A DNA stretch of 32,291 nt from contig LVLI01000044.1 of the NCBI GenBank assembly GCA_001687465.1, positions 1-32,291 of the forward strand, given 5' to 3'. A program made the translations under genes and the position numbers. Numbering within the stretch: position 1 is the stretch's first letter; the number at the start of each line of letters is the position of its first letter. This DNA comes from Halocafeteria seosinensis (Eukaryota). Positions 10,163 through 31,985 of the stretch are shown in pieces. The notes beneath the pieces were generated by a model that worked only from the letters and a program-made list of their open reading frames with translations, was not told the origin of the DNA and ran no database searches.

Positions 10163-13100
10163 CTACATCTTTGTTTCACTAGCTTCTTGTTCATGGTCTC
10201 CCTCAAGCAGGTTTTTCGTAGAAGACGCGTCAGATTCAGAATCGTCGGTAGCAACTACTCGTGTGTTGCTTGTATGTCGGGCGTCAGTGGAAAGAGGATT
10301 CTGCACCAAACTAGGCTCTTCTACCTTCGATGACCCCGCTTCGGGAGTGGAGGCGGAAACCACCTGTTGAGACGTCATTTGGGGCATACTTTCTACTGTC
10401 CTCTCCGATTTCGCTTCAGGAGCGTTGTCCTCCGGTTTTGGGTTGTCAACTTCAGCCCGAAGTTTCTCCGCTTGCTCTCTCACTTCTAGGATGTAAGATC
10501 TCACACGTTCCCATTTTTCTTTTCCAGGCGGTGCCTCCTCTGCAACAAGTTCGTTAACTGACTTTGTTGACGCTTGCTGCTTTAGCGCCATAGGATTGTA
10601 ATTCATTTCGGCCCCTTGCTTGGATTCAGTACCGACGCTGGTGTCCTCTTGCCTGCTTCTCTTCGACTCGCATAACCTTGTTATCGTTGCCACGTTGCAT
10701 GTCGCACCTAGTTCGGCGACGAACACTACGAAGAAATACAGTACACTCGCCGCAATGACAATACCAATAGCAATTGCCAAAGCATTTCGTTGTGCTTCAC
10801 CGTCACCATTATCGAAACGGCTACTCTGAAACATGATCCCACCGAGTGCCACAAAGACAGCAGATGCCAGAAGAACCGACTCCACTGTATTGTAGTTAAA
10901 CACGAAATTTGCAGATCTGGCTTGCTTTTCGCGGAGGATCTTGTCCATGTTCTCCGACTTTCCTTCCCGACGGGATTGTGCAGCTTTTTCGGCACTTTCA
11001 TACATTCGCTTAATGTTCAAATGCTTCGTACTCCCTTTGTTAACTTTGTTGTTATGATGTAGAAGCACTTCTTTCCGCCCCGCCATACTCATGTAAGGTT
11101 GGTAGTGAATATGCAGCGCAAACGCCAGGAACAGAACTACAAGGGCAACTGCTAACTGGAAGGAAGGAGTGCGTCGAAACATCAACGAAGTGATTGCGAC
11201 ACCAAACTTCCTCGATATGATCAGAAGAATCCAGTACCACTTTCCAGGCTTGAAGTGGTAATACATTCTATGGAATTTTCGTCGGAAAGACAAGTACGGG
11301 TTGGTCGACTTGGTTTCACCGATTCCCAAACAGCGCAGCAATTGATCCGTCTTCACGACATGCTTGTTTCGACGCAATAAGATACCGACGAAGAGCGGAT
11401 AACCGAGTGTGTACACGCATGCGAACAAGATTGCAAATGGAAACAACCGCAAATGCACTCCCCCTTCCTTAAAGCACGGGGCAACCGTGGCTTGCATATA
11501 TCCAGGACCCCAATCATCCGGGGGATCTGTCGGATTGCAATTGAATACCTCGAAAATCGTTCGCGTGAGGTACAAGTAGAGGAAGTAGAACATCAAGAAA
11601 AATACCCCAATAAGGATTGAAGCATGCTGGTTTCGTTGACTTGACCCCCACCGCAGAATCCAACGATGATACACGTAAAGACAGATGTGGATCAACAACA
11701 GAAGAGTTCCTACTGCCACGGGTAACAGCATCGTTGCAAACCACCTCACTTCATAAGATACGGTGGGCATCGCACATTCGGGAGCAGTCACCTCAATATT
11801 CAGATTAAAAATGTTCATAATCCAAAATAGTTCCCGAAGGAAACTCGGCCAGGCAACACGAGAGTTGGCAAACATAGCCAAAACTTGAAAGTAATCCACC
11901 CCGATTGTAACAAACGAAATATTAAACTTGTACTTATGAACGATGTATCCGCCAACAGCCACTCCAATTACCAGGAGAACGAAGAGAACCACAAAAACCC
12001 ATGCGTTGGAAGGACAAGGAACGCATAAACCACCTCGGCGATAATACTTGCCAGCAACACACTCACTACATCTCTCGCCAGTATACCCAGTCGTGCAGGT
12101 ATTGTTCGTGTCGCAGGCCTCCTTTGGTTGACATGCGATGAAATGAGGGCAGCGGTCTTGCACAATAGATGGCCGCTTACGTCTCTCTTCCGGGCAATGC
12201 TTCGAGTCTCCAGGGGTAACAGGTTGTTTCCACCATCCGGAGGCAGCAAATGGTTCCTCATATTCGACACAAGTGCCGTCCGTTTCGTTCACTCTGATAC
12301 AGCCTTTGAATCCTCCACGGCAAATTCCACCTGGGGGACACGCCATGCATCGCTCGCCTACCTGGCCATAGAACTCCGGGAAGCATCTCATTTCCACAAG
12401 CCAGTCGTCTTCTTCTTGTAACTCCTCAATCGTACGACCACCTTCAGCAGACCGCAAACCGCGTCCCGGGGACAAAGTTGGATCGTCAAGGACAGGTTCA
12501 ATTTCGTATCCATTCGCCGGGAAAGTAAGGTTGGAATAACCAGCCACAGACAGTTTCAGAATCTTAGGCCCAACGATATCCCGTTGGATGGCACAGTCAA
12601 TCCGACGGTCGCTAATAAGTTCTGGGCTTTTACAGGGCGTACCTCCTATCCAAAGTTGCGGCGGATTTTCAGCACTTCCGAAGCTTGGAGCACCGAAGTC
12701 TTCTCCCGCCAGGAATGCGTCATCATGACCTTCGGCATCGGGGCGATCAGGAATCATCCCTTCTGCGAGCGGTGCGTTGTACGAGAACTGTTTCGGGGTA
12801 CCCTCAATCCCATCTACCTGTGGTTCCAGGTCGATGTTCCTTCCAAAACCACTGATAATCTTGCAGAAAAAGCTGGTGTGCGTGTACGCACTCTCGGGTT
12901 GCGGCGGTCTCTCACCATTTTCATCACGCTGTAACCATTCATCAAAAACACTATCGAAATTGCCAAGAACAGAGCCGCAGCGTCGTCGTTCACCTCCAGG
13001 AAGGCGAACATTAACGATTAATCCATTATCAACTTCTTTCGTCCCTAATGACCGAACGATACCGTCGTTTGTGTTGTCTTTGTTTCTGATAGGGGGTAGA

Positions 13101-16100
13101 ACATTCGATTGCTCCTCAAATGATGGAATACTCTCAATGCGCCCAAAGTTATTTCCTTCCAGTTTCACCAGGTATCCTTCGGTAGGTCCAGTTTCTGGGA
13201 GCACTCGGAAAACAGTTGGAGCCGTGTATGACACTTCGAGCGCTTCATCCACAGAGCTGCTTTGTCCCGCGACGTGGACACGTACTTTTCGAAGGCCACC
13301 CTGTCCTTCCGGGGTGACAATCTCTATGACGGAATGATTAAATTGGGTGATCTCGCCCCCATGTACAAACAAGTCGCCTTCGCGGAATGGGTTCGGTAGC
13401 GTGTATCGGACGTCCTTGTCCGGTCGAGTTGGTTCAAGCGTTACCAGTAGATGGGGAGAACGAGCCTTATTCTGAGGTGCGAAATCAACCCCATCGACTC
13501 CCTCGTTCCCAAAATTGGCACCATATATGGAAACAGACTCTCCTCCCGTTGTACTCCAATCCTTCAACGAGATACTGTGGATTTCCGGATGAGAGTAGCT
13601 GTACCGAACATCGCAACTACTTGGATCACAGTTGGCTTGGTCGTCAACCGTCACAATTACGGGATGATTTACTCCTGCATACTCAGGAGCAATGCAGCTT
13701 ATTTCATCATGCTTTTGCTCAATCACCACGTCGCGGCATTGTCGACGTCCGATGCGAACATTGATTCGATCTTGGAATGACCCGAAATTGGATCCTCGGA
13801 TCGTAACGCGATTCCCACCATTGGTCGGACCACGTGGTGGATCGATATGATCTACCACGGGAGGCTCATAATCAATTCCTAGGTAGTGCGTCAACTGTTG
13901 CCCATCTACATCCATTACAAATTGGTGACCTCTCCCTGTATTTCCTGGTAGATTCAGCGTAGAATACGTGTGATCGAAATCTGTTGAGTCGAATACATGT
14001 GCGTCTGTGGGAACGAACTCGCGACGTGTTCCATCAGCCTTCATTTCAAGGAATGCGTGATCTTCTCCAAAAGGAGTTGTTCCAAAGTTATCACCTTCTA
14101 ACATGACTTCGCCACCTGTTGTAGGCACTACTATGCGTTTATCGAATTTTGGACGGGGACTGTGCTGGCGGAAATTATTCCCGCGGCCGAAAAACTCTGC
14201 AGGTGCAGCGAACAATTCGGAAACATTCCTCCAAGTCGCTACTTTGTTTCCTTGAGAGTCGACCTTAGCGAACACATCTCGAACCACAGGTGGAGCGTAG
14301 TTCAGAACACAGCTGTCGCTATCAGTTTCCATACCAAGGCGTTCGATCACAATCTGATTGCCGGTCCCTTCACCTGGGGGAACCTCGCATTCTACCTGAC
14401 ATTGCAAGGTAATATTGTTCTCGCCGACCGGTACACAATTGAAGGCACCAGTGTTGTTCCTGCATTCTTTCTCTCCCACCGTTATGCGCAAATCAGCCCC
14501 TTGAATGTCGCGAGCTTCCAAGGTTAAAATTTCTGGTTCGGCCGCTTCGTAACCAGCAGTTCTAAACAGGCGATGTCGATTCTCCTCACATTGGCCAGTG
14601 CTAAATGATGGAAATTCTGGAAGGTAACGTTTACTTGAGGTCTGCCGTTCTGATACGCTAGCACGCACAAACCCTTGACTAAGTGGGATCTCTGCCACCA
14701 CACCATCATGATTCCATGACTTTATGGCGGGTCTCGTGATCCGAAGCCAAGTAGCATTGGTCTCCCATCCAAAAATACCTAGGTCTTCCATCTCTGCGGC
14801 TGCTAACTCAATATTCCTGGTTGCTATATCCTCAGATTTAAGGTTTAGTTCAAGACATCCACATTCCGGGAATGGACCAACTGTAGAGTAGCCGGACGCT
14901 CCTGGACACGAGTCCACATCCAGTGCCACCGTTGCCGGATGACACAGAGAGCTACCGCGTATACTCAATTCCATCATCCGAAGGCGGCCATCCAGTATTT
15001 TAGTCTCCATTGCTCTAATACCATTAATAACAGGAGGGTCGTAAGACAGTCTCACTGTATCAGAGTAATGATCGCCCGTTTCGGTATGAGTAATGATTTG
15101 CAAAGGAATATCCTGACCGTAACCCGCGGGCACTGTGAATACGAAGACTTCCAGTGACCCTTTGAGTTCTGTGGTACCGTTACGACCAGGGACGATTGCC
15201 CTCGTTTGGCGGTTGGGATCATTAAAAAAAGCCATGTCCACGGGAAAAATCTCTTCTCCAAAGATAACTTCGTGAGACGCATGAGGATCATCTAAACCAA
15301 GGTTCCGACCAACCACGCGAATTTGAGCACCACCCGCTGTACTCGTTCGAGCCGATTTTGGATTGGAGCAGTCAGTGGGGATGTGAGATGGTTGTGTGCC
15401 GTCTGGTAGAGGAGTGGGACGAGGTGTATGTTTCTCCATGCACTCTAGTGTGCCGGCCTGGTATCCCCACGAAGGAGATGCCTCACTCACCTGGCCAGCT
15501 ACACTAAGACGCCAGAACAAAGGATTTCCGCTGCCCGGAGGGACAGTACATTGAATTTGAGAATGATTTAATACGCGACAATCTCTTGCCTCATATTGAG
15601 TTGGTACACCAGCCATATCCGGGCCGAAACGTACCCACTCCAAGTTGGCTATCCCAGTTTCTTGGGGGCCAAAGTTACTGCCAATAATGAGTATCTCTTG
15701 CCCACCATCCGTAAGTGCATCAACAGCCCCTGGACCACCGAAGTTAGTGATCGAAGGACGAGCGTACCGTGTAACTGGAGGAATAGAAGATTGTCCGTCC
15801 ACCGTAATGTTCCAAATCATGTCGGAGCCAGCGCCCGGCGGCAACGCGCATTCAAGTAAAATATGGGGAGTCTTCACCTTACAGTCGGCTTCAAAGATAG
15901 GGGAGATCGTATCCAGAGCTGTATCCTTTACATCGTTATCCGCATTCAAAGCATCCGACCGAACGAAAGTTGCCTGGTCAACATTACCAGGTGGACCGAA
16001 CATCGAACCATGCACCAATACTTCGTCTCCTTCAGTGTCCAAATGATTAGCGCCTGCAGGACCACCTTCCACTGCTTCATAGAATGAAACTATTGGAGGC

Positions 16101-19100
16101 GAATAACTCGTATTGAATACTAGTGGCATGGGATGTCCTACGTGAGGTTGCCCGCCAACCCACACATTCCACTGAAGGTCTTTTCCGGTCCCTTCCACCG
16201 TTTCACAGCGAATAGATTCGTGGGGCACAGACACCTTACACTTCGCCGCCGTATATCGACTGGAGTCATCCAGAGGGCCGTAGGTCACTTTCAATAGCTT
16301 ATCACCATACATATCGGAAATATCGTCAGAGAACATTGCGGATGATGGACCCATATTGATGCCGTTCAGGGTTATTCGTTCTCCTCCACGAGTATCGGCC
16401 TGTAACGTGCCTTCACCCTCAATGTTAGGAACAAGAGGAAACGCGTAATGGGTCGTGATATCCTGTGACACTTTCAGGTCGCTGATTGTATTGCCCGTGT
16501 GCACGCGCCATAGCAAGCGATTGCCCACGCCCTGCCTTGTCACGCATTCGAGAATAGTGTGAACAGCGATAAACGTGCAGTGTTCCGCTTCATACACGTC
16601 ACCTTCGGAAATCATCTGTAACGATGTTGTATTGATGAGGCTTTCGCCATCTATGCGTTCACCAGGACCAGGGACTCCAAAGTCGTTACCGGTGAGACCA
16701 TCCGTTGATATAACGGGACCGTAGTACACCGCGATTTCTGCAATGTTTTCTCCGAAATTGTCTCCCACTATACGAACCGTCTCTCCTCCCTTCGTCGACA
16801 TTATGGTACCATTCAAGTATATCGAAGAATATTCAGGACGACATATTTCATGAGAAGTCGCGGACACAGAATGGACAATAGGCGGGCCATGCGCTGAGTC
16901 TGCTCTTAAAATGTTGCTAGTCCTTCCTTCAGCAATTACAAGTTTCCAAGCAATACGGTTCCCAATGCCGGGAGAGGTGGTACAATGAACCTTAGTATGA
17001 GGAGATTCATTACTCACATCGCATACTGCCGCTTCAAACTGGAAGGAAACCGAGCCATCGTTGCGACGAGGGCCGTACAAAACAGTCACATCGGTACCAG
17101 CCGGGCCAAAATCAGTTCCTATTAATGTGATGTTTGTCCCTCCAGACGTTAACATGGCCGCATCATTCAGAATTTGGACTAACTCGGGTCTTCGGTACGT
17201 ACTGCGAAGGTTACTCAAATGGGTACTCACCCGATTGCCACCGTACTTGGCCCCGTTATCCTTATAGTCAATCCGAGTTTCCCATACAATATCTTCGCCA
17301 ATGCCTTCCACCGAGCTGCACTGGATTTGGATGTTTCCCAAACTCTGGTGGCAGTCATTCAGCCTGTACTCCGTGCGTTGGATCGTTTCCTTAGACGAAA
17401 CCATGCGTTCTTTCCCTGCCGCCCGTGAGCTCTTGGGCACGTCTACGATTGTCCCGCTACCGCTCCCATTTGGCCCGTACCCAAGCACCACTATCTCCTC
17501 AGAGCCATGGAGTGGATGACTGTCGGCATATCCAAGGTCACGGCCATCGAGCAACAGGACGTTTTCGCCTTCCGAGTCCATGTATCCGTCAGATGAATCG
17601 GATATGTTAACACTATAAATCTTCGAATCTGGTTCATTCAGAGCGAAGATCCAGACGTGAACTACATCACTCAGGTTATGATGGTTCAGAAAGTCATGAT
17701 CCGATACTTCGACAGTTAAATTGTAGGAACTTTGCTTCTCGAAGTCGAGCGATTCCGTTATTCGGATATCTCCGGTTGCCTTCTCAATATAAAATGCGTT
17801 ACCATCATTTCCGCCGACGATTGCCCACCGTTTTATACCCCAGCCATACGAATCCGGAGAATCTTCGTCAGATGCAGGCGCGTACCACAAGCTCATTCTT
17901 CCCCTTCGACTCTGAAACTGACACAGCAAAATCCGGATTCGGCTCAGGAGAAAACACAATCGGCGGATCGTTAACGTCATCCAATTGGATTGTAAATACA
18001 CGGCTGTGCGTCAGTACGGTCACATCACCAGTTGTAGGATGAGGAGGAAGGCCATTATCCGAAACTTGGATCTCAACCTCGAACTTTCCGACCGTCTCGA
18101 AGTTAAGGGAGCACGTAGGGTCTTGGAGATCATCTCGAACGAAAACTTCGCCACTAGTGGCGTTGATAGCAAAGGGGAATTCACCATCACAATCAAGTTC
18201 CGACGGTTGAGGTGTGTAGTCGAGAATATGGAATTTGAACTCCTCACCGGCAACTGCCATGTCTGGATCGTCGACGCGAACACTTGTGACGAATGTCCCT
18301 GGAGCAGAGTTTTCGGGAATGTGTTTTGGAGTGTCCGCATTGGTGATCTCGGGAGATTCATTCACATCTTGAACAATGACAGTAGTGGTGTTTATTGTCC
18401 TCAAATTTCCCGGGCCATCATTGCGTACTTCAATTCTCAGTTCGTACCTGTCCTGAGACTCAAAATCCAGTGTTTGGTCTCGTAACCGGAGCGGGGCAAC
18501 ATTGCGCTTCTTGTTTTCTTCTTCCTCATCGCGCCATTGCACTGAAAACATGCGGGTTCCCTCCGAAGGGGTGGAATCACGAATTGCGAAAGACAACGTC
18601 AACTTATCGTCATGAGTCTCTGCACCAATTGAGTCCAGAATCCGACCATTAGGCCTCAAGTCTTCCGGGACCTCTACTGTTTGAGCTAAAAGGGTAGGTG
18701 GGAAGTTGTTCCCAATGATATCAATGTGCAGTATGCCATATTCAGAGGTGAATCCTGAAGGATCAGTTACGTTGACTAGCATTTCACAGTAGTCCGCAAT
18801 ACCGTCAGAAAGGGCAGGAAGTCTAATATCACCTACGCGAATGGTGGCTTTTCCAGCCTCTTCCTCATGAGAAACAATGAAATATTGACAAGAGTTAGTC
18901 GGACGTTCGACAGAAGCAAATGCAAATGTTAGCTTGTCGGCATCCCCCTCATCGACATCGTCCCCTTGAATAAAGTCTACTCGGGTTCCTGGGAACGCTG
19001 ATTCCCCGATGCTGGTTTGATACTCAACCGTATCGTATGCTGGGAATGCGGGATGCTCATTAACGTCGTTCACTTGAACGGAGATATGTCCGACACTTGA

Positions 19101-22100
19101 CAGGCCCCCGGGGTCGGAGACTCGTATGCTTATTCTGTAGGAAGTTCGGCGCTCAAAGTCTAAAGCACTGCCTAGTCCGGTCCTTGGTTCTCCCGTGCTA
19201 ATATTGATTTGAGTTCGAATGTTTCCATTCGGTTCAATAGCAAATACGTCCTTCCCGAGAGAGCCTTCCTCCATCTCGTACAGCAGGCTAGCAGTGTCAC
19301 CAGGATCTTGGTCCCACCCAAGAATGGGACTGTTCTGGAGNAGGTGATTCCCGCCGGTATTTTCATCCACGTGGAAGACTTGACCGGCAATGAGATTCGG
19401 CGCAGTGTTGACGTTTCGAATCAACACAGTAACCACTGCTTCAGACGAACGAGGTGGACTTCCATCGTCGGACACACGAAGAATCAGTCGATATTCTTTG
19501 CGCGCCGTGTGATTAAATTCGGCACGAGAAAGTATTTGACCAGAATCTTTCTCAATGTCAAACAAGTCCGTGGCCTCCGAATCCTCGCCGGGGCTAAAGT
19601 CACTGGCCCACCCAGCAATGTTATATCTAAGAGTCGGGGGAGTAAAAGGCATCTCCTTCCCAGAAACTGCGCCGGGACCAGTGTCAGGATTCGTGGCATT
19701 CAGCTTCGGATGAACTCGGCTTCCGGAAGGTTCCCTCTCTTTTATCCAAACTTCTTGGTCATCCACGATTGGAGGCTCATTAACGTTATCCAGATCCACA
19801 GTTACTTTTGTAACATCCCGCAGAGCTGGCCATTCCTCTGGCCGTGGAGTACCTTCATCAGATACTTCCACATAAAACACATACCGCGCAATATGCTCGT
19901 AGCCCAGACAAGCTGGACCGAACTCGTTCACTACAATTCGAGCCGTCTCTTGATTTGATCCTTCAGGTTCCACCCGGAATGGGAAAGAGCCAGGATCAGA
20001 CACCGTTTCGGAACCATCGCCATATTCGATGGTTGAATCGCGAATAGTCCAAGAGAATATCGTGCCTACATTTTCATCAGTCGCTGAGACCGTTCCTACC
20101 GTCGTATCTTCCTCTGACATCTCCTTTATTCGGAACATCTTCGACCTGGACTCCGTCTCGGGAAACAAATTGGCCTTCAGTATGTCAACAACAAAATCAC
20201 CCGTATCACTCAGCTTGGAGTCAGTTATTTTAATTGTCAGCGAAAGTTGATGGTCCGATATACTCTCATATGCGATACGGGGAGCGTTGGGCGCAACAGA
20301 TATTGCCCCAGAAAACTGATCGATCTGTAGAAATTTATTAGAATCTTGAGATACAATAGAGTACATGACCTTGTCCGGTGAGTTTGACTCCGCTAGAGCA
20401 TCTGGATCAGCTGCTTCTACAAGTGTGTCGTAGCCACTCCCTAAAACTAAGGGAGTTCCAACAGTGGAGTTTTCAAAAATTGCAAACTTATGTTTTGCAG
20501 GCTCCTTCGTGAAATAGGGAGCCTCGTTTACATCGTTCACATGAATTGTAACAGTTCCAGTGACTTGCTTAGCGGGTTCACCTCGGTCATCCGCAAGTAT
20601 CTCAGCTTCATACATGCGAGTGCGGTTTTCGAAATCAAGGAGACCCGCTCCATCCCGGGAGACGCTTAGTTGGCCTGAGCATGAACCAATGCTAAAGAGG
20701 CTCGAATCCTCCGAGACATCAACAGACAAGATAGAGAAGAGAAGTTCCTGGCCAAACGAGCGAGCAAGCTCGTCCTCATCGAATACTACCAACTCATGAA
20801 GGGGGTTTCCAATCAGAGTAGCCCTTTCGGAGTGTTCGTCCACACTAACAATTGTCAGATCTCCGGACGAGAATGAACTCCGCCACACGGGCTTCTCGTT
20901 TATATTAACAATATTCACTTTGATCGTACAGGTAGCAGAAAATCCATCGGCCTTGGCCTTTACCCGCAATGAATACTGCCGGCATGCTTCGTAGTTAGCG
21001 AACGCGTTGTCCCCAAACCTAATATGGAAGTCATCCCCTTTATCCTCGCCAATGAAGAGCTCCTGTGTGTCAGGGACATGAAACGTATACCACTCCGGAA
21101 TCCCTTCAGTATTGATGCAATGTTCAGCGCTGGAAATATCATCGATGCTGTACTCAACAGGTTTCTCCGATTGACGATTCTTTGCACGCACGTGTACGAT
21201 CGACCCTCCACGGTTGTTTTCTTGGGCTTCAGCGAGAGTACCACCGTCGACTGTGCTTCCCGACGTGGCACAGCCACGTTCCCATTGAATCCGTGGATAT
21301 CTGAATCCATCAATACAGACTTCATTGCTACTACAAGCCCGTTGCCCTTCTCTTTGGGTCTCGGGAGCACCCTCGGGAATCGTGTAATGCCCTCCATCTA
21401 CCTGTTTAATTGAGTTGGTTCCCTTTGGGCAGTAGTACGTGGCCGGGTCTTGCGCCCCTGAAGGAGCGCAGCTACTTGATGTGGCCGAGGAAGAGCCTTC
21501 GCCACAGAAGAATCCAGCCCGGCATCGTCCGGAGCAATCAGATGAAGTCAATCCCCGCTGATTCCCGAACCGTCCTGCCGGACATTGATAGCGTTTTCCT
21601 TCTTGACAATAGTACCCTGCTTCGCACTCCAATTCTTTGGTGCGAGTTTTTTCGCTTGAGCCTCCCACGGTGTAGTATCCATTCGAGACGTGCACAGGAC
21701 TGTCGCTACTTTCGGGGCAGTAGTACTTGGCAGATCCGCACTTTTTCTCCGTTGGACTTGTACTAGCCGGGGGACAATAGTATCCTGCAGCGCACTTGCC
21801 TGCACATGTAGACGAGGTAGATCCCTCCGTGCCATAATACCCTGCTTGGCAACTTTGGCTCGAAGATTGGGGCTTGCGGTTGCCTCCACTACAATAATAC
21901 CCGGCATTGCAGAAGCCTGAGCAGGAGCTGTCACCAAGACCTCGTCGAGCCCCGTAAGTCCCAGGTGGGCATTCTTTCTCGTCAACTCTCGTCGACCCAG
22001 GAGGACAATAATGTCCTTCCAGACAGGAGCCGGAGCATTCAGCGGTGAATAGTCCGGGAGCATCGCCGTAACGGCCTGGGGGGCACTTGACACATTCCGC

Positions 22101-23871
22101 ATCATCTCCGGTTCCTGCTTGGTACGTGCCCGGCATGCATATGTCACATTCACCATTCACTTCGGTTGACCCAATAGGGCACGAGTCATAATATGAAAAC
22201 GCATTCGTCATTTCTCTCCATAGTCCACAGTTCGCGAGGTTAGAAACCTCGATTTCGACATTATTGGTCCCAGGGTCAGAGTTCTTGGTCAAAGTGGCCT
22301 TCTCCGGTACGACGCAAATGACATGGCTACTGGTAACATAAATTGCTCTTCGGTTGACCCACTCAGAACCACCTTGGCCTCGTAAACGGAATCTACAGGC
22401 AAGGGCTGCACTCAGCTTAAAGTTGCTGCCAAATACATTCATCGTTGTTTGTGCGTCCTTCTGTCCCTGTTGAGGAGACACACTGTTCACATTGGGCAGT
22501 TCTTCGGAATCTGGTACAAACAGTTCTACAGTTTCCGGGGATGAAGTACCCTCGTTATCTTGAGCAGTTATGCTCATTTGGTGAACACCATCTTGATTGG
22601 CCGTAGACTCCCAGCTAAACTCATACTGAACAGGATTGCTGCCAGAAGATACCTGTGTAAACGTTGAACCACTGGGTCTACCAGCAGTCTGGAGCTTTAC
22701 ACTATGACACGGCTCTTCGTTGTCTTCAGCGGTGACTAAAAAACTCTCCCTCGTCCCGGGAAGAAAACACTGAGGTAAGGTATCATCAATCCATGGGGAC
22801 GGGGATTTAAATGTTGGCGGGTGATTACCCACACAGGAGCAGCCACTGCCACAGTCGTGATCGTTGAAGCATGCTTTGCCACAATCATTGCAGTTACTTC
22901 CTCCACTGCAAATGTCAGCCCGTGGTACTATTCGCAAGATGAAGTCGATACCAACTTTGGAGTAACCATCTGATACAATGACATTTGTATACCACAGTTC
23001 TTGGTCATTCCCTCCAAGAGATGGGGGATTCCAAGTCATTTTCCCGCTTCCTTCGTCAATGGAAATTCCAGGAGGATGGTGCCCGGTGCCGGTTTCTACC
23101 ATTTCGTCGCTCTCAGCAAGTCGAAATGTTAAGGGATCCATATCATCATCGCTAGCATCGACAAAAAAATTATTTTCCTCTCCCTCGGTAACGGCAATGA
23201 TGGGCATCATAGAGGAGGCCGGAGGGCGGTTTACCATATTGATGTCGCTGCGGTGAGAAAGGTCAATATCGGCAATCAGACGCCAAGAGGATGACCCACT
23301 ATTTTGGATAGCCCCGATGCGACAGCACGACTCGAAACGCCATCGATAGGGATCCCCGTTGTTGGTTTTGGCAGGATAGCGGTGCTTTGTCTGAGCTTCC
23401 CCGTCAAACCAGTCTTCATCTTCGTCGATGGAGTTGATGTTCAAGGGCGGCATTCGCTCTCTGTCTCCATCGCCATAGTAGAAGCAGCAGTAGTCTCCAT
23501 CTTTTTCACCTATTTTGGGCCGATGGAAAAACGACCACCGCCTGCATCCACAACACGCAAAGGAAAGCCATTTATAACAAGGTACTCTGATGTGCCAGCA
23601 GCGGGACTCACGAATCAACTTACCAGCCAATGCTAAACGTAAACCGCACGGTATTAGGGTGGTGGTCATTCGGCTGGTATCTCCACGTGACAACCCCATA
23701 GCGATAGTGCGACGCCTTCACTGCGTCCAATAGAAAGCTCAAGCCTACTATCGTAGACGCCATAAATGGCAAAGAACGACTCTTTCTCTTCCTCCTGCCG
23801 TGAGCCCGCTGCCGCTGGGCAATGCCAGCTGTCTCACCATAGAAAGAAGCACCCATTGCTCTGCTTTTCAT
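10163..23871 (-). CDS. Giant cadherin / IPT-TIG / Cys-rich cell-surface protein with nine TM helices (nonagonal-cadherin-like), ~4,500 aa
   Basis: Joined from exon 1 (start ATG at 23871, 23856 or 23763, to 23624; signal-like MASTIVGLSFLLDAVKA-SHYRYG), intron 23623..23542, ORF 17868..23699 and ORF 10163..18001, with a frameshift at ~17880. It has cadherin motifs (LDFE, DxD, DVNExP), CPxGxYC repeats, G.NFG IPT/TIG repeats and nine hydrophobic helices near the C-terminus. The start codon is uncertain and small in-frame introns cannot be excluded. Confidence 0.85.
10715..12005 (-). other. Nine-pass transmembrane region of the giant gene
   Basis: Hydrophobic segments begin AWVFVVLF, ISFVTIGVDYFQ, WFATMLLP, ILIGVFFL, LFPFAILF, WYWILLII, FQLAVALV, VESVLLAS and ALAIAIGI. 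Counted by eye. Confidence 0.7.
17630..21250 (-). repeat. About 10 tandem cadherin repeats within the giant gene
   Basis: Repeat-end linkers NINEKP, DVNEAP, KANLFP, NVNEPP, NVNTAP, DVNEHP, GNNFPP, DVNESP, DVNDPP and ALNEPD, plus LDFE/LNFE and DxD calcium-binding motifs. Coordinates approximate. Confidence 0.85.
21310..22190 (-). repeat. Cys-rich CPxGxYC (ephrin-receptor-like / GCC2_GCC3-type) repeat tract within the giant gene
   Basis: CPIGS, CMPGTY, CPPGRYG, CLEGHYC, CPPGTYG, CNAGYYC, CQAGYYG, CAAGYYC, CEAGYYC, CPAGRFG, CRAGFFC. Coordinates approximate. Confidence 0.8.
23542..23623 (-). other. 82-nt GT-AG intron (phase 2) of the giant cadherin gene
   Basis: The minus strand reads GGCTG|gtaagt ... 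ggatgcag|GCGGTGG. Splicing joins ...FTFSIGW to RWSFFHRP in frame. Confidence 0.85.
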
Positions 23872-25148: not shown

Positions 25149-28100
25149 ATGGCATCGAACAGCAAGAGGGACGCCAGGACGGAAGAAAGAGTGCAGACGT
25201 GGATTCAACGGATTCGACGAAATGATCCAGGGTATAAGGATACAGGATGGGATCTTTATCGGAAGAACTTGGATGACGAAGATGCAAAAGACATAGCAGA
25301 TGCCTTGCGGGAGGGAAAGAATACGACATTGACGAGGATTACTTTAGCAGGGAATCAAATCAGTGCTAAAGGAGCTAAATATTTGGCACATGCATGGCGC
25401 GTCAATAAGACATTGACTGGGATTGATTTAGGACGGAATCAAGTCGGTGATATAGGAGCTCAACATTTGGCGGATGTCTTGCGGGTCAATACGACATTGA
25501 GTGCGATTTGGCTACATGGGAATCAAATCGGTGATATAGGAGCTCAACATTTGGCGGATGTCTTGCGGGTCAATACGACATTGAGTGCGATTTGGCTACA
25601 TGGGAATCAAATCGGTGATAAAGGAGCTCAGCATTTGGCGGATGCCTTGCGGGTCAATACGACATTGACCAGGATTAATTTAGAGCGGAATCAAATTGGT
25701 GCTATGGGAGCTCAAAGTTTGGCGGATGCCTTGCGGCTCAATACGACATTGACTAAGATTTGGTTAGACAGGAATCAAATCGGTGCTACAGGAGCTCAAC
25801 ATTTGGCGGATGCCTTGCGGGTCAATACGACATTGACCTATACTGGTATAAACAACAACCAAATCAAGGATCAATCTCTTACGGACCGGATCAAGCATTT
25901 AGTATTCCAGAGAAACAATGTAAGACCACAACGACAATGTGTTTTGTGGAAACTAGCTTTTTTTTTAGATGAATGCATGAATGAATGAGGAAGGAAGGTC
26001 ACTTGCGACGACATACAGTGTAAACCCGGTCGCGTTTGTCCTTGTGTGGGTGTGGATAGGCGATTATGAACTAATTGTTTGCGATTTTCGTGCGTTTGGG
26101 TTTTGGTTGGCTTGACGTTTCTAGGGCAGTGATTGTGCATTTCCACTGTTGTTAAGCACTGAGCCAATTATTGTCCCTTTATCTTTTTCCTTGGTTTTGC
26201 GGATTGCAGCACGAACCGGAACGAGCCAAACGAGAAGCTGAAGAGATCAGAAAGGAAAGCGAGGAACGACAGCGACATAGTAATTGGATTGGCCTCCACG
26301 TATCAGTACGCATATCTGTACTTGAAGCCATACTGTTCGTTTACGAGATCAACGTCGATTCGTTGGCTTGTTTCGACATGTGAAAACTGCAGAACAGCGA
26401 CCATCGGAGCAAAAGGGACGCCATGAAGGAAGAAAGGGTGCAAACGAGCACTCAAAGGATTCGGCGAAATGATCCAGAGTACACGAGGACGGGAAGTGAC
26501 CTTTGGGGCACGAACCTGGATGATAAAGATGCAAAAGACATAGCAAATGCGTTGCGTGAGGGAAAGAATACAACATTGACATGTATTGATTTAGGAAAGA
26601 ATCAAATCGGTGATACCGGAGCTCAACATTTGGCGGATGCCTTGCGCCTTAATACGAATTTGACTGAGATTAATTTAGGAGCGAATCAAATCGGTGATAC
26701 CGGAGCTCAACGTTTGGCGGATGCCTTGTGGATCAATGCATCATTAACCACGATTCATTTAGGAGGAAATCGTATCGGTGCTGCAGGTGCCCAACGTTTG
26801 GCGGATGCCTTACGGGTCAATACAATATTGACGAAGATGGTTTTAGCAATCAATCAAATCAGTGCTACAGGAGCTCAACATTTGGCGAATGCCTTGCGGG
26901 TCAATACGACATTAACTGAGATTCGTTTAGAAGCCAATGAAATCGATGCTACAGGAGCTCAACATTTAGCGGATGCCTTGCAGGTCAATACGACGTTGAG
27001 GGAGATTGATTTACCAGGGAATCAAATCGGTGATAACGGAGCTCGACATTTGAGGAATGCCTTGCGGGTCAATACGACATTGACTAAGATTGTGTTAGCA
27101 AACAATCGAATCGGTGCCACAGGAGCTCAACATTTGGCGGATGCCTTGCGGGTCAACACGACGTTGACTGAGATTTATTTAGGATTTAACAAAATCGGTA
27201 ACACAGGAGCTCAACATTTGGCGGATTCCTTGCGTTTCAATACGACATTGACTACGATTTGTTTTGGGGAGAATCAAATCCGTGCTATTGGAACACAGCA
27301 TCTGGCGGATGCCTTGCGGGTCAATACGACATTGACCACGATTTGGCTGAATGGAAATCAAATTGATGATACAGGAGCTCGACATTTGGCGGATGCCTTG
27401 GATGGCAACATGACATTGACTGATATTGATATAGACAACAATCCAATCAAGGATCAGTCTCTTAAGGACAGAATCAAGAATTTAGTATACCAGAGAAACA
27501 AGGTAAGACCACACGACTTTCTCCAGCAAACAACGGTTGCGTCTTGTCCAAGCTCGTTCCAGTGGAATGAGACTAGCTCTTTTTGTTGGAGCACACAGCA
27601 ACAAAGTGAATGCATGAATGAGGAACGGAGAAAAGGGTAGGTCGCTGCAACGAAGTAAAGTGTAAAACCGGTCGCATATTTCATTGTGTGCGTGTGTATG
27701 GATCATTAGTGAACTATGTCCTTCTGATTTGTGTGTGTGTTTGGTTGGACTGATGTCTCTAATGCAATGCTTCAGCATTTCCACTGTTAAATTTTAAGTC
27801 GATTCTTGCCCCTTTGTCCTCATTCTTTGGTTTACTGTTTCCAGGCTGAACCCGAGCGAGCAAAGGGAGAAGCTGAAGAGATCAGAAAGACGGAAAGCAG
27901 GGAGCAACAACGACATAGTAATGGCATTGACACTCATGAATCAGATGCAGTAAGTGCGTCTCAGGCGATTATCTTCATGAAAAAGGTCCACGTTGGCTTC
28001 TGCTGTCAACGTGCGTAACCCACAGAAGAGAACGTATGAACCCTTACGAGTGAAGCGTTTGGAAAAGCTGGCAAGGACGGATGATTATGATGGGATCCGG

Positions 28101-28478
28101 AGACTGCGAGGTTCTTTACGATCGGTAGATCTTGCTGGAAACACTGTCTTGCACAAGCTCCTGAAAAGTGCTGACGAAAACGTTCGGGACAAAGCCAGAT
28201 ATTTATTAGTGGTTGAAAACTTGGATTTTGATGTCAACATTCAAAATGACCGCGGAGAAACAGTTCTCCATTTGGCCGTCGGGAAGTCGAATGCTGACAT
28301 TGCTGAAGCTGTTGCCAACAGAGGAGCTAACCCAAATCTCCTCGATAAAAGTGGCAAGCCAGTGCTGTCTTATATTGAGGAGCGAGGGGACGAAGAATTG
28401 TATCGTCGTATCTTTGTCCAACATCGTGACCAGTTCGACATGACTTTAGACAGCAACCAACACACAGTGGTACGGTAG
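25149..28478 (+). CDS. Spliced LRR(7)-linker-LRR(11)-linker-ankyrin protein, ~844 aa (NLRC3/ribonuclease-inhibitor-class LRRs)
   Basis: Exons 25149-25919, 26210-26305, 26393-27502, 27845-27949 and 28026-28478. Donors are gtaaga, gtacgc, gtaaga and gtaagt; acceptors are tgcag, tgcag, tccag and cacag. All four introns are phase 0 and the joined frame is open. The repeat consensus is GAQHLADALRVNTTLTxIxLxxNQI. The last exon has ankyrin motifs GNTVLH and GETVLHLAV. Confidence 0.75.
25290..25865 (+). repeat. 84-bp tandem array, 7 LRR units (first LRR exon)
   Basis: Period-84 unit ggagctcaacatttggcggatgccttgcgggtcaatacgacattgac...aatcaaatcggtg. 25444-25620 is an exact period-84 duplication. Confidence 0.95.
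26535..27450 (+). repeat. 84-bp tandem array, 11 LRR units (second LRR exon)
   Basis: Same unit as the first array. Beta-strand variants are TCIDLGK, TEINLGA, TTIHLGG, TKMVLAI, TEIRLEA, REIDLPG, TKIVLAN, TEIYLGF, TTICFGE, TTIWLNG and TDIDIDN. Confidence 0.95.
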
Positions 28479-28628
28479 CTAAACACGATATGAATCCTAC
28501 AACAGTACTGTACATATATATATGTGTATTTGATGTTTTCGTCTCTAAACGAAATTAGAATAGCCGGCCAGGGACAATCACTACTAACGTGACACGTTTG
28601 GTGGGCCAAAGGAGGGACTTCCACCAAA

Positions 28629-28697
28629 CGTCGCACTGGTGCACCAAGTTATCCACCCAAAGGCTTTGGGTGGATAACTTGGTGCACCAGTGCGACG
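28629..28697. repeat. Perfect 69-bp palindrome (34-bp arms, 1-nt spacer)
   Basis: cgtcgcactggtgcaccaagttatccacccaaag-g-ctttgggtggataacttggtgcaccagtgcgacg. The arms are exact reverse complements. Confidence 0.97.
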
Positions 28698-28788
28698 GAA
28701 CAGAGAAACGCCTGTCTGCCGCGGGTCGTTGGGACACCAACAGTGAGTGTCTTTTTTTTTCTTCTCTCTCTTTGTTGGCATATAAACG

Positions 28789-30672
28789 ATGGAGGGACTT
28801 GTCGTGAGTGCCCTCGATGGGGTAAGAAAGCTGTATAATGCATTCAAAGACTATAAAGTGGCGGCCTCGGAAGCCGAGGATCTCGCCCACCGCCTCTCCA
28901 TGCTGGATTCCATGCTTCAAAGAGTACCCACAGACGACGACTCGATCCGCACGCCATTGGAGCGGGTCGCTCAGACAGTGGACAACAGCTATAGTGCTAT
29001 CATGGAACGTCTGCAACCGAAAAAGGGGATATGGAGAAAAGTCAAAGAATTGGCGTCCTCGGCCGCGGATCGCCAAGCGTTCAGCAAGATAGCATGGGAG
29101 ATTTTCCACGCCACTTCGGATCTTAATATGGCACTCACTTTGGACAACAGGCATGACCTACGCCGCATTCGTGAAATCTTGGAAAATAAGGAATTGATTA
29201 ACGAGCAAATGGTGAAGCAGTTCCTTGCGCTCGTTGCGGTGAATTACGAGAACGAGCCAATCAATCCGAAGAAAGAAAACGAAAGCGATGATGAAGATAT
29301 GACGTGGGGCATGAGTAGCATTCGGAGGTACTCGTTGGACGACTTAATCTGGGAAGATGGTGAAGGACCAACACGGGATAGTCCTGAGAGGTGTCTCATT
29401 CGGAAGGGTGGCTTCGGATCTGTCTATCGAGCCAAGCTACGCGGTGTTGGCGATGTTGCCGTTAAAAATCTGAACATTGATCCGAATGAATTGAAAGGGA
29501 AACGGTACAAAGAGTTTAAACGGGAATGCGTCCTACTTCATCGGGCTTCGACGAATCCCAACGTTGTGTCGTTCTTCGGAATCGTGAAGACGAAAGACTC
29601 GATCGGCCTAGTGACGGATTTAGCCAAAGGAGGATCCCTATTTGCTGCCATGAATGAAGAAGATCATGAATACTGGTCAGATCTACCCACCGCGCTGAAA
29701 TTGAAAGCGTTGCTTGACCTACTCGTCGCAGTAAATTGGATGCACTCGTTGGGACTGGTCCATGCCGACTTGAAGCCGCAAAACATTCTTCTTGCAGAGG
29801 ACATGAAAGATGCTTCATTCCCACCTAGTCTGTGGGTGAGTGATTTTGGATTGGCCCACACTACACGCACAATTAAGACATCACGAGGCTCAGCCCTTTG
29901 TCCCAAAGGAGAAGGGCCAACAGGTGGCACTTTGGGATTCATGGCTCCCGAAACGCTCTCGAGGTCGGAAACCACTAAGGAATCGGATATATTCTCGCTT
30001 TCGGTTACGCTTTGGTCCGCACTGAGTGGTGAAGAACCCTTTAAAGGCGTTGTGGATGCTCAGCAATATCTACTCCAATTGAAGAATGAAGGACTTCGTC
30101 CGAATTTAGACCAGCTTTCAAGGGACGTTCCTACAAACATAGTTAAAATCCTGCAACAAGGTTGGTCATTCGATGCGGATCAGCGTCCGACTATTGAAAC
30201 TATGCTAAACGAATGGAGTGGTGAAGCCACACAGGCGATCTATGCAACCCTCGGAGCAGTTTACCAGGTAGAAGAAGCTGCGAAAACCCAAGACTTTGCT
30301 CGCGTCCATGATCTCAAGTCGTCTGTCAATGACAGAGACGCTACAGGGAACACAGCGTTGCATCGCCTGATCCAAGCTGGAAATGAAAGCGTGTTCGATG
30401 CTGTGGAGTGGTTACTTATTGACGAAGACTTACCATTTGACGTTGACATTCAGAACGAGGAAGGTAAAACTATTCTCCACTTGGCCGTCGAGGGTGCCCA
30501 CGTCGACCTGGCAGATACTATCTGCGCTAGATCCCCCGACCCTACTCTCAAAGATGGGGCTGGTCGATCTGTATCCTCTTTTCTGCAAACCTGTGGAGAA
30601 ACTACGGAACTGTATCAACGGATATACATGGAATATCGGCGAGGAATCTTTGGCCACGAAACGGAGCCATGA
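28789..30672 (+). CDS. Protein kinase (TKL-like, non-RD) with N-terminal MLKL-like helical bundle and C-terminal ankyrin repeats
   Basis: 627-aa ORF. Kinase motifs are RKGGFGSVY, VAVK, FKREC, HADLKPQN, DFG, GTLGFMAPE and SDIFSL. The C-terminus has GNTALH and GKTILHLAV ankyrin motifs. The N-terminal ~125 aa of amphipathic helices end in KGIWRKVKELASSAADRQAFSKIAWEIFHATSDLNMAL, which resembles the MLKL N-terminal domain pattern. That domain call is less certain than the kinase call. Confidence 0.9.
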   Translation: MEGLVVSALDGVRKLYNAFKDYKVAASEAEDLAHRLSMLDSMLQRVPTDDDSIRTPLERVAQTVDNSYSAIMERLQPKKGIWRKVKELASSAADRQAFSKIAWEIFHATSDLNMALTLDNRHDLRRIREILENKELINEQMVKQFLALVAVNYENEPINPKKENESDDEDMTWGMSSIRRYSLDDLIWEDGEGPTRDSPERCLIRKGGFGSVYRAKLRGVGDVAVKNLNIDPNELKGKRYKEFKRECVLLHRASTNPNVVSFFGIVKTKDSIGLVTDLAKGGSLFAAMNEEDHEYWSDLPTALKLKALLDLLVAVNWMHSLGLVHADLKPQNILLAEDMKDASFPPSLWVSDFGLAHTTRTIKTSRGSALCPKGEGPTGGTLGFMAPETLSRSETTKESDIFSLSVTLWSALSGEEPFKGVVDAQQYLLQLKNEGLRPNLDQLSRDVPTNIVKILQQGWSFDADQRPTIETMLNEWSGEATQAIYATLGAVYQVEEAAKTQDFARVHDLKSSVNDRDATGNTALHRLIQAGNESVFDAVEWLLIDEDLPFDVDIQNEEGKTILHLAVEGAHVDLADTICARSPDPTLKDGAGRSVSSFLQTCGETTELYQRIYMEYRRGIFGHETEP

Positions 30673-31083
30673 CACTTTGGTTGGATCTCGGTTGACCGGA
30701 ATAACAAAGGCGATATAAATAGGTACCACCAAGGAAAAACAACTTGCACTAGTCGAACGGATTTACAGGTTCTGCGCGTTTCGAAATTGCATGGTTTACT
30801 ACTCATTGTCGCCCCAGACATACATGTACATCTTTTAAACCAACCTGCAGTTCCTCTGATGGACATCACTTACCTATCCCTGCAAGGATAGTGTCCCTTC
30901 CCTTCGACTATAGTAGTTGTTGGCCTTCTGAACATACTACAGTAGTTATACATGTAGACACAGGAAACTGGTGCTCAGCATCCAGTACAATTGTAGCTGC
31001 AGAAACTCGTTCTTCTAACTCAATCTGTGGAAGTGAGCTCCAGCAGCAACACTTGCAGCGGACTTTGGTTTGACGATAATTCC

Positions 31084-31320
31084 ACCCTGTTGTAAAGTCA
31101 ATACAATACCGGTAGTCACGAGCGAAGTCACGATGCATTCTCTTGTTCCTGTTGAGTTCGTGAGTTCCTGTTGATACAATCTTGGAGAGCTCGCGTTGCT
31201 AGCTAATCGTCGAGAGTCCGATAAGCCCTGGCGGTACTGTAGTACAGTATTCTCAAACATGAGAATGAGGTCTTACTGTTGTACATTGTACAGTACCCTG
31301 TTGTAAAGTCAATACAATAC
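31084..31320. repeat. 26-bp exact direct repeat pair
   Basis: accctgttgtaaagtcaatacaatac at 31084-31109 and 31295-31320. Confidence 0.85.
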
Positions 31321-31639
31321 AATAGTCGCGATGCCTTCTCTTTTTCCAGTTGTACATACCTTTCGTCCCCGGACCGCACTGTGCCTCCCTCAACACACGA
31401 TGACCATGACCATACATTTCGGATGGACTGTGGACATACCAACACAACCATACCATCGCATCCATGGGTTAGTAGCTACCACTGGTACAATACAATACCC
31501 CTACCTACATAACCACACCAAGATTGGCATTTATTTGGTTTACCAAAGAAAAAGACAGTCTGCTTGTTACATGTATACTATACTGGTATGCATCATGCAT
31601 CATGGATAGGGGTTGTTTGCCTGCTTGCTTGCTTTTTTA

Positions 31640-31985
31640 TCTATCTGAGGTAAAGCCACTCAGCATACATACTGTGCATCCATCCATACACTACTACCGG
31701 TACACGGAGATGCTATAGTATACAACAAAGTATACGGTAATAGTGTACTGTACAGTCTACTGTACCTATCTAAAGAAGAAGAAGAAGAGGAAGAATGGCA
31801 TCCAACAGCAGCAAGCCGAGCAGGAAGAAAGAGTGCAGACCAGTATTCAACGGATTCGACGAAATGATCCAGAGTATACGGATACAAGAGGGGATCTTTG
31901 GCACAAGAACTTGGATGACCAAGATGCAAAAGACATAGCAGATGCCTTGCGGGTCAATACGACATGGACTACGATTTATTTAGCA
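31640..31985 (+). pseudogene. Third, truncated copy of the LRR gene 5' end
   Basis: It shares the upstream donor motif, the aagaatggcatc start context and EERVQTSIQRIRRNDPEYTDTRGDLWHKNLDDQDAKDIADALRVNTTWTTIYLA. The ATG (MASNS) is out of frame with EERVQ, and homology stops abruptly at ~31985. Confidence 0.85.

What the first reader, a model, noticed from the sequence alone, without database searches (positions are those of the whole stretch)
28789..29165. MLKL-like N-terminal bundle attached to an apparently active kinase
Animal and plant MLKLs carry pseudokinases. Here VAVK, the catalytic Asp (HADLKPQN), DFG and APE are all intact, an acidic linker follows the bundle, and ankyrin repeats are appended. 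It could be a self-activating, RIPK+MLKL-in-one protein. The MLKL assignment rests on my recognition of the helix pattern only.
Basis: inference. Interest (0 to 1): 0.7.

Follow-up and report, generated by a model that had tools for sequence, protein, structure and literature searches.

The report
Protist MLKL-like kinase with ankyrin repeats
This gene, likely from a single-celled eukaryote, joins a helical bundle distantly related to the animal cell-death protein MLKL to a kinase with all its catalytic residues and to ankyrin repeats; the layout is already known from cereal disease-resistance genes and likely serves here as a defence or cell-death switch, but no function has been tested.

Summary
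ORF 28789-30672 (627 aa) encodes a four-helix bundle, a predicted brace helix, an acidic linker, a non-RD kinase with intact motifs, and ankyrin repeats. The bundle belongs to the MLKL/HeLo superfamily. A family profile's best PDB hit is mouse MLKL (E 4.7e-4, but only via bridging members). Relatives hit Pfam MLKL_N and Helo_like_N, and an alignment-based model matches human MLKL and NRG1.1 best among natural proteins (Z about 10, tied with designed bundles). New here: a separate, probably protist, kinase clade with both intact (4 of 6) and degenerate (2 of 6) kinases; an ankyrin module shared with the adjacent LRR gene; and a spliced antisense RNA across the gene. Best reading: a bundle-executed defence or death switch gated by the kinase domain (inferred, untested). 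The scan noted MLKL-like bundles in other protists before, on other architectures. New variant of a known kind.

The parts
28789..30672 (+). Single-exon gene, 627 aa: four-helix bundle - brace - acidic linker - non-RD kinase - ankyrin repeats (P0001)
   Evidence: EukProt full-length products P0002, P0003, P0005
28789..29142 (+). MLKL/HeLo-like four-helix bundle, residues 1-118; predicted helices 2-20, 27-44, 51-75, 81-90, 92-118; amphipathic first helix at the free N-terminus
   Evidence: model, fold; sequence and feature links; helix-1 moment p 0.007
29158..29247 (+). Predicted brace-like helix, residues 124-153 (pLDDT about 59-66)
   Evidence: aligns into the MLKL brace region
29251..29388 (+). 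Acidic linker, residues 155-200 (14 D/E, 5 K/R)
29398..30210 (+). TKL-type kinase domain with intact K226, E246, D327, DFG, APE; non-RD (HAD)
30259..30639 (+). C-terminal ankyrin module, 39% identical to that of the upstream LRR-ANK gene and unlike the ankyrins of family member P0006
   Evidence: (108 bits, E 4e-32) against (22 bits)
26423..28478 (+). Upstream LRR-ankyrin gene, 545 aa after splicing (introns 27503-27844 and 27950-28025); candidate sensor
   Evidence: joints; spliced frame open; LRR_6; variable repeat positions
25149..25988 (+). Tandem LRR paralog (first exon or ORF)
29011..29138 (-). Intron of a spliced antisense RNA (GTGAGT...CAG on the minus strand), inside the bundle-coding sequence (residues 75-117)
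   Evidence: joint in X2, X3, X4 and not in X1
30377..30433 (-). Antisense RNA intron (GTAAGT...CAG)
   Evidence: joint in X3, X4
30591..30873 (-). Antisense RNA intron, one donor (30873) with three acceptors (30772, 30610, 30591)
   Evidence: one form each in X4, X3, X2
31298..31359 (-). Antisense RNA intron (GTATGT...CAG)
   Evidence: joint in X4
28629..28697 (.). Perfect 34-bp inverted repeat 91 bases upstream of the ATG; role unknown

Best explanation
The gene encodes an MLKL-architecture protein (MLKL/HeLo-like bundle, predicted brace, kinase with intact motifs, ankyrin repeats) that likely acts as a defence or cell-death switch, in which the kinase domain would hold the bundle inactive until a signal frees the amphipathic first helix to oligomerise and damage membranes. 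Shown: architecture, intact motifs, purifying selection, the family with intact and degenerate kinases, the shared ankyrin module, the antisense splicing. Supported by computation: the MLKL/HeLo fold. Inferred: membrane attack by the bundle; the kinase as a conformational or nucleotide switch (as in wheat R3AK) rather than a self-activating RIPK3; ankyrins and the neighbouring variable LRR proteins as the sensing side; the antisense RNA as a brake on expression.
For: Fold: family profile A4 finds mouse MLKL as the only PDB hit under E 1e-3 (4.7e-4, profile 14-145 on MLKL 17-150; next hit 0.04). Of the 10 new relatives from 1.84 billion proteins, 4 hit Pfam MLKL_N (3.8e-6 to 0.014), 2 of them also Helo_like_N/PigL_N, and one is a fungal NLR N-terminus (hhalign prob 77, E 2e-5). 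ESM Atlas: all ten best family-bearing hits share one family or clan, with MLKL_N, MCAfunc and RPW8 among the rows shown, for P0001 and P0008. The 13-row model (pLDDT 76) matches human MLKL 6zz1 Z 10.3 (rmsd 4.7, 129 aligned), NRG1.1 Z 10.0 (2.8, 101), Rx-CC 9.6 and AtMLKL2 8.9. In the unbiased wide search the two best natural chains are NRG1.1 (Z 9.4) and MLKL 4btf (Z 9.3). Bundle as the business end: the region aligned to helix 1 is amphipathic in 13 of 13 rows (p 0.03 or less against shuffles), and the bundle is kept where the kinase has decayed (P0049 HAHLNPHN/DSG, P0050 HAEIKPHN/GFG) inside one clade with support 100. All four intact kinases are non-RD, a trait linked to immune kinases whose catalysis can be dispensable (PMC8463890). 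R3AK precedent: the bundle kills, kinase-site mutation auto-activates, and it is paired with a neighbouring sensor. Neighbouring LRR repeats vary at 4 positions (6-8 residues among 14 repeats) on a conserved frame.
Against: No function was tested. P0001 itself hits no MLKL family above cut-off (PUB10_N E 0.06). The MLKL hit vanishes when the bridging members P0052 and P0054 are left out. Structural Z-scores are tied with designed bundles and with the non-killing Cbl N-terminal bundle (Z 9.6), and Foldseek gave nothing under E 1e-3. The bundle is not basic (net -2; family -6 to +3), whereas human MLKL uses basic clusters for lipid binding (PMC8433767). P0049 has TPRs in front of helix 1, and P0006 and P0007 have short N-terminal extensions, which would hinder insertion. 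In Pm13 the same layout works the other way round. Variable concave positions are common to many LRR proteins, and the ankyrin sharing may be local shuffling without functional pairing.
Confidence: 0.45

Rival explanations
1. Pm13 mode: the kinase is the output and the bundle is an auto-inhibitory or sensing (decoy) domain; activation frees brace-driven kinase dimerisation and downstream phosphorylation.
For: In Pm13 only brace-kinase killed, dependent on the catalytic Asp; bundle alone and full length did not (PMC11297308 passages). The kinase motifs are intact in 4 of 6 family kinases, the gene is under purifying selection, and the bundle lacks a basic surface.
Against: Two of six family kinases are degenerate yet keep the bundle. 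Helix 1 is amphipathic across the family, as in executing bundles.
Confidence: 0.25
2. One reading: a self-activating RIPK+MLKL in one chain. Clustering via the ankyrins drives trans-autophosphorylation of the activation loop, which releases the bundle.
For: Best PDB kinase matches are RIPK1 and RIPK2; with the family profile RIPK1 scores 137 bits against TAK1 117 and RIPK3 113. Activation loops hold 7-12 Ser/Thr in the four intact members. Kinase plus ankyrins recalls RIPK4 (recalled).
Against: Neither tested intact-kinase MLKL works so. The kinase is non-RD, a class thought not to need loop phosphorylation, with low activity. No RHIM, death domain or CARD was found. Trees give no supported RIPK sisterhood, and sisterhood with plant receptor kinases fits as well (p-AU 0.61 and 0.53).
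Confidence: 0.15
3. Not a death protein: the bundle is an adaptor or membrane-targeting module (as in Cbl, plant U-box ligases or MCA/CNR13 proteins) on an ordinary stress-signalling kinase.
For: The Cbl N-terminal bundle scores Z 9.6 and 9.3. PUB10_N is P0001's own best superfamily Pfam hint, and MCAfunc clusters are among the Atlas hits. The bundle is neutral in charge. A survey of 67 protists found no necroptosis regulators by homology (PMC7539657).
Against: Patchy family with varied repeat partners (ANK of two origins, TPR, Sel1, NLR), non-RD kinase, allelic amino-acid variation and a neighbourhood of variable LRR genes all fit defence genes better than housekeeping signalling.
Confidence: 0.15

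Closest known systems
Wheat R3AK (helper MLKL paired with R3NLR; bioRxiv 10.64898/2026.08.07.743466, passages and section 7)
   Same: 4HB + brace + kinase with conserved catalytic motifs; a leucine-rich-repeat gene next door
   Different: Kinase here forms its own clade apart from the plant receptor kinases sampled (R3AK itself not in the tree); ankyrins appended; the neighbour is LRR-ANK in tandem orientation, with no NB-ARC domain
Wheat/Aegilops Pm13 (MLKL_NTD-kinase; PMC10951266, PMC11297308, passages)
   Same: MLKL_NTD + brace + kinase with all key residues
   Different: Pm13 kills through its kinase; no ankyrins; arose by recent fusion in grasses
Vertebrate MLKL (4btf, 6zz1, 6zvo) and Arabidopsis AtMLKLs (6lba)
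   Same: Homologous N-terminal bundle with matching helix order, followed by a brace and a kinase fold
   Different: They carry pseudokinases; vertebrate MLKL is switched by RIPK3 and uses basic lipid-binding clusters; no ankyrins
Basidiomycete MLKL-like (BaMLKL) and HELL N-termini of fungal NLRs and HELL-kinases (PMC9815663 section 13; PMC12881547 passages)
   Same: Closest sequence pattern of the bundle (P0055/P0060); same overlapping Helo_like_N, SesA and MLKL_N hints
   Different: Mostly NACHT-WD40 receptors; no NACHT domain here
RIPK1/RIPK2, and RIPK4/ANKK1 (kinase + ankyrins; architecture recalled)
   Same: Best PDB kinase scores; kinase followed by ankyrins
   Different: No N-terminal bundle in RIPKs; no RHIM, DD or CARD here; orthology unresolved

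Membership tests
MLKL/HeLo/RPW8 four-helix-bundle superfamily | Sequence homology to MLKL_N, Helo_like_N or related profiles | tested here: met
   Met only through relatives: A4 profile finds MLKL 4btf at E 4.7e-4; MLKL_N 3.8e-6 in P0054 (26.9 bits, cut-off 27), 6.7e-5 in P0052, 0.012-0.014 in close members P0046 and P0050; PigL_N 2.8e-5. Not found without the bridging members; P0001 alone E 0.06
MLKL/HeLo/RPW8 four-helix-bundle superfamily | MLKL-type helix topology in register from the N-terminus | tested here: met
   Model helices 2-20, 27-44, 51-75, 81-90, 92-118, 124-153; in-register matches to 6zz1 (Z 10.3), 7l7v (10.0, 9.4), 4btf (9.3), 6ux8 (8.8). Z-scores are within the range of generic bundles
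MLKL/HeLo/RPW8 four-helix-bundle superfamily | Membrane permeabilisation through helix 1 | not testable with these tools
   Helix 1 is amphipathic; net charge of the bundle -2
Vertebrate MLKL | Pseudokinase domain | tested here: not met
   K226, E246, D327, DFG and APE all present
Vertebrate MLKL | Two-helix brace | tested here: inconclusive
   One long helix 124-153 at pLDDT about 60; the model ends at 154
Vertebrate MLKL | Activation by RIPK3 phosphorylation; orthology of the kinase domain | not tested
   No MLKL or RIPK3 sequence was available to the trees; no whole genome held
Monocot MLKL-kinase fusion proteins (Pm13, R3AK) | 4HB + brace + kinase with catalytic residues | tested here: met
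Monocot MLKL-kinase fusion proteins (Pm13, R3AK) | Kinase drawn from plant kinase lineages | tested here: inconclusive
   Family kinases form their own long-branched clade (support 100); sisterhood with 4 plant receptor-type kinases is not rejected (p-AU 0.53); Pm13 and R3AK were not in the tree
RIPK family | Kinase domain groups with RIPKs | tested here: inconclusive
   RIPK1 is the best PDB score; no supported grouping with P0009 or P0019; p-AU 0.61
RIPK family | RHIM, death domain or CARD; or kinase at the N-terminus followed by ankyrins as in RIPK4 (recalled) | tested here: not met
   Pfam finds no RHIM, DD or CARD, and a bundle precedes the kinase

The most novel reading that the evidence does not exclude
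A unicellular eukaryote lineage has independently built a necroptosis-like module. An MLKL-architecture family diversifies into active-kinase and pseudokinase members (replaying the kinase-to-pseudokinase step that is lost from the record for animal MLKL). This member is the executioner of a linked pair with the adjacent variable LRR-ankyrin sensor, with which it shares an ankyrin module, and a spliced antisense RNA holds it in check.
Probability: 0.2. Interest if true: 0.8.

Novelty: new variant of a known kind. Interest (0 to 1): 0.52.

Why it matters
MLKL-architecture proteins are described from animals, plants and fungi. My searches found no paper on a bundle-brace-kinase protein in protists, and one survey of 67 protists reported no necroptosis regulators (PMC7539657). 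If this protein kills, lytic regulated death by an MLKL-type executioner extends to single-celled eukaryotes. A review notes that no ancestral active kinase is known for the MLKL lineage (PMC13519141, passages). A small family with both intact and degenerate kinases on the same bundle gives a natural series for testing what catalysis does in such switches, and which of the two opposite wheat mechanisms (Pm13 or R3AK) is general. The architecture itself is not new, and MLKL_N domains already sit in database clusters whose commonest taxon is Oomycota.

Tried and rejected
The single-sequence model (pLDDT 64) fused helices 1 and 2 and gave only generic bundles, with no MLKL among the rows shown by VIA or Foldseek; it was superseded by the 13-row model. 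Foldseek on the better model: no hit under E 1e-3 in PDB (Rx-CC rank 2) or BFVD (a few small giant-virus proteins at TM about 0.5, E over 0.2, not taken as evidence). phmmer of the bundle alone and profiles A2 and A5 did not reach MLKL; DELLA, Sfi1 and Occludin hints were rejected as short coiled-coil chance matches. P0053 (MlaD/MCE repeat protein) was dropped from the 10 new hits as a false positive. Word-indexed searches for the bundle found only the protein itself. Scans of JGI metagenomes (80 loci kept of 314) and IMG/VR (1 locus) found kinases but no bundle, so no genomic context for relatives was obtained. EukProt P0004 (568 aa, lacking most of the bundle) was rejected as a real isoform: it is the antisense-spliced RNA read on the + strand (99% match). 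Coding potential of the antisense RNA was rejected: longest stop-to-stop frame 166 aa in 10 splice combinations, no Pfam hit in two minus-strand ORFs, no Rfam hit. A complex prediction of the neighbour's ankyrin module with the kinase-ankyrin part gave no model, so binding is open. No holder was listed as RNA. No whole genome was held, so paralogs were not counted. The host lineage was not established by any search.

Full report
Observation. The window is eukaryotic: short GT-AG introns are spliced in three of four runs, and the protein is in EukProt as transcript products. No call names the organism; I take it to be a protist, and from recall a heterotrophic stramenopile, unverified. The finding is the first 126 codons of a single-exon ORF, 28789-30672, 627 aa. 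Pfam gives a kinase at 206-474 (E 2.8e-38) and ankyrins at 504-589. K226, E246, D327, DFG352 and APE386 are present, and residues 155-200 are acidic. The catalytic loop is HAD, so the kinase is non-RD. Run X1 shows two variants at about half depth each (48.5 and 52 against 107.5), which reads as two alleles. Of the 25 variant sites shown in the ORF (40 of 69 table rows displayed), 15 are synonymous, pN/pS about 0.2, p 7e-5. The gene is real and constrained.

Family. A search with residues 1-480 gave 41 proteins, of which three besides itself cover the whole region (P0006 44%, P0007 41%, P0008 32%). All three have bundle plus intact non-RD kinase, with different tails. A profile of the four N-termini against 1.84 billion representatives gave 14 hits at E 1e-3 or better: the 4 seeds and 10 more. 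One is a false positive (P0053). P0048 is a truncated paralog from the same EukProt set. P0049 (TPR-bundle-kinase) and P0050 (bundle-kinase-ANK) have lost catalytic residues (HAHLNPHN/DSG; HAEIKPHN/GFG); P0058 from a second contig repeats the P0049 changes. P0046, P0051, P0052 and P0054 are short proteins on contigs of about 1 kb and may be fragments; P0059 is bundle-Sel1 and P0055 is a fungal NACHT-type WD40 receptor. The six family kinases form one clade (FastTree 1.0, 60 of 103 kinase rows used; SH-aLRT 100, 28 rows, quick tree). Its sister group is unresolved: neither RIPK (p-AU 0.61) nor plant receptor kinases (0.53) is rejected. By score RIPK1 is the best solved kinase. No MLKL, RIPK3, Pm13 or R3AK sequence was in the trees.

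Is the bundle MLKL-like? P0001 alone gives only PUB10_N at E 0.06-0.07 over nearly the whole profile. Relatives do better: PigL_N (PF17111, called Helo_like_N in PMC9815663, which aligns it to MLKL) at 2.8e-5 in the seed set; MLKL_N at 3.8e-6 (P0054), 6.7e-5 (P0052), 0.012 (P0046) and 0.014 (P0050). An 8-row profile finds mouse MLKL as its only PDB hit under 1e-3 (E 4.7e-4). Without P0052 and P0054 this hit is lost, so the link is transitive; the seed profile and the bridging members align at hhalign probability 95 (partly circular), and the close family aligns with the fungal NLR N-terminus at 77. ESM Atlas features point to MLKL_N, MCAfunc and RPW8 clusters for P0001 (0.85-0.93) and P0008 (0.83-0.93). 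The 13-row AlphaFold model (pLDDT 76, pTM 0.64) has helices 2-20, 27-44, 51-75, 81-90, 92-118 and 124-153. Among 48,161 chains its best natural matches are NRG1.1 CC-R (Z 9.4, rmsd 2.7, 100 aligned) and MLKL 4btf (9.3, 3.5, 109), behind one designed bundle (10.0). Realigning Foldseek's candidates puts human MLKL 6zz1 first (10.3, 4.7, 129), with NRG1.1 10.0, 6zvo 9.8, Cbl 9.6, Rx-CC 9.6 and AtMLKL2 8.9. These Z-scores alone would not prove it, and Foldseek found nothing significant. Three kinds of evidence agree, and I put the superfamily assignment at about 0.9. Fold does not show function: Cbl shares it.

Neighbourhood. Upstream, RNA-type joints link an LRR ORF and an ankyrin ORF into one 545-aa LRR-ANK gene. 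Its ankyrin module is 39% identical to that of P0001 (108 bits), while P0001's ankyrins barely match those of its relative P0006 (22 bits). So ankyrins were attached at least twice in the family, and this one was shared locally. Two more LRR copies flank the locus. Among 14 core repeats, four positions carry 6-8 different residues on a conserved frame, as expected of a binding face, though this is common in LRRs. Summed contig depth over the LRRs reaches 3,600 against about 100 in X1, suggesting a large family; the tool warns that depth is not copy number. Whether the two proteins bind is open.

Antisense RNA. Runs X2-X4 (kind not on record; one study) show joints with CT..AC ends at 29011-29138, 30377-30433, 30591/30610/30772-30873 and 31298-31359, absent from X1. 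On the minus strand all are GT-AG introns, and their 4 donors are among only 7 strong consensus donors of 187 GT sites. The spliced RNA has no frame over 166 aa. Unspliced contigs across the first intron exist in X2 and X4 at similar depth; contigs cannot show their strand, so sense expression is likely but not shown. EukProt's P0004 is this RNA misread.

Mechanism. The layout is known. Pm13 has MLKL_NTD, brace and a kinase with all key residues, among 714 such proteins retrieved from grasses and Arabidopsis (PMC10951266 passages); its kinase kills and its bundle represses (PMC11297308 passages). R3AK kills through helix 1, becomes auto-active when the kinase site is broken, pairs with an adjacent NLR, and such fusions arose several times in monocots (bioRxiv 10.64898/2026.08.07.743466 passages and section 7). 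Fungal HELL-kinase/pseudokinase fusions are mentioned in PMC12881547 (passages). I favour the R3AK-like reading (0.45) because the family keeps the bundle where catalysis is lost, helix 1 is amphipathic in 13 of 13 rows, and non-RD kinases often act without catalysis (PMC8463890 passages). Against it: a neutral bundle (net -2), unlike the basic clusters of human MLKL (PMC8433767 passages), and N-terminal extensions in three members.

Novelty. Seven literature searches listed no paper on such a protein in protists, and PMC7539657 (passages) found no necroptosis regulators in 67 protists by homology to human sequences. The library lacks most subscription papers, and no supplements were read; InterPro-type tables may already list oomycete or fungal MLKL_NTD-kinases. 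An Atlas cluster with MLKL_N is mainly oomycete, and this scan noted MLKL-like bundles on a protist ROCO and a protist NLR (unchecked), though nothing for this sequence or genome. Other papers seen as passages only: PMC11932488, PMC9950082, PMC10583209, PMC10197012, PMC13519141. Verdict: a new variant of a known kind, interest 0.52.

Noticed in passing
window 28695-31450, minus strand: Multi-exon, alternatively spliced antisense RNA without a long ORF covers the whole kinase gene; spliced contigs are of similar depth to unspliced ones. It produced a false 568-aa isoform in EukProt (P0004).
   Followed up: partly
window 28596-28697: A perfect 34-bp palindrome (28629-28697) just upstream of the gene, preceded by a 16-bp segment (28605-28620) between 9-bp inverted repeats that appears inverted in one X1 contig; the segment also repeats 10 bases of the gene start.
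   Followed up: partly
window 25149-28478 and 31795-31985: Cluster of three RNI-like LRR genes with 84-nt repeats, variable at four positions. The third copy is frame-shifted after its ATG and cut at about 31986 by a stretch of high depth in all runs, possibly a mobile or repeated element with no Pfam hit.
   Followed up: partly
window 10163-23717, minus strand: Two giant ORFs (2615 and 1949 aa; cadherin, IPT/TIG, SIBA-like Ig, cysteine-rich, multi-pass membrane end) overlap in different frames near 17870-18010 and may be one gene with an intron or frameshift; one N at 19341.
   Followed up: no
window 3295-5898, minus strand: 867-aa ORF with glycine-rich beta-helix-like repeats and a Ser/Thr-rich tail; no Pfam hit.
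   Followed up: no
P0008 C-terminus: Cysteine-rich tail resembling a PLAC8 domain (recalled; no Pfam hit); PLAC8 is the commonest partner of MLKL_NTD in plants according to PMC11297308.
   Followed up: no
L001-L005, L007, L008, L010; P0010: Unrelated non-RD kinases; most of those printed are preceded by repeated 'KKDG.LDMR' motifs, an unexplained repeat-kinase family in metagenomes.
   Followed up: no
BFVD hits: Small uncharacterised giant-virus proteins (Faunusvirus, Mimivirus LCMiAC02, Terrestrivirus, Bodo saltans virus) match the bundle model at TM about 0.5 but with E over 0.2; possible viral bundle mimics, not tested.
   Followed up: no
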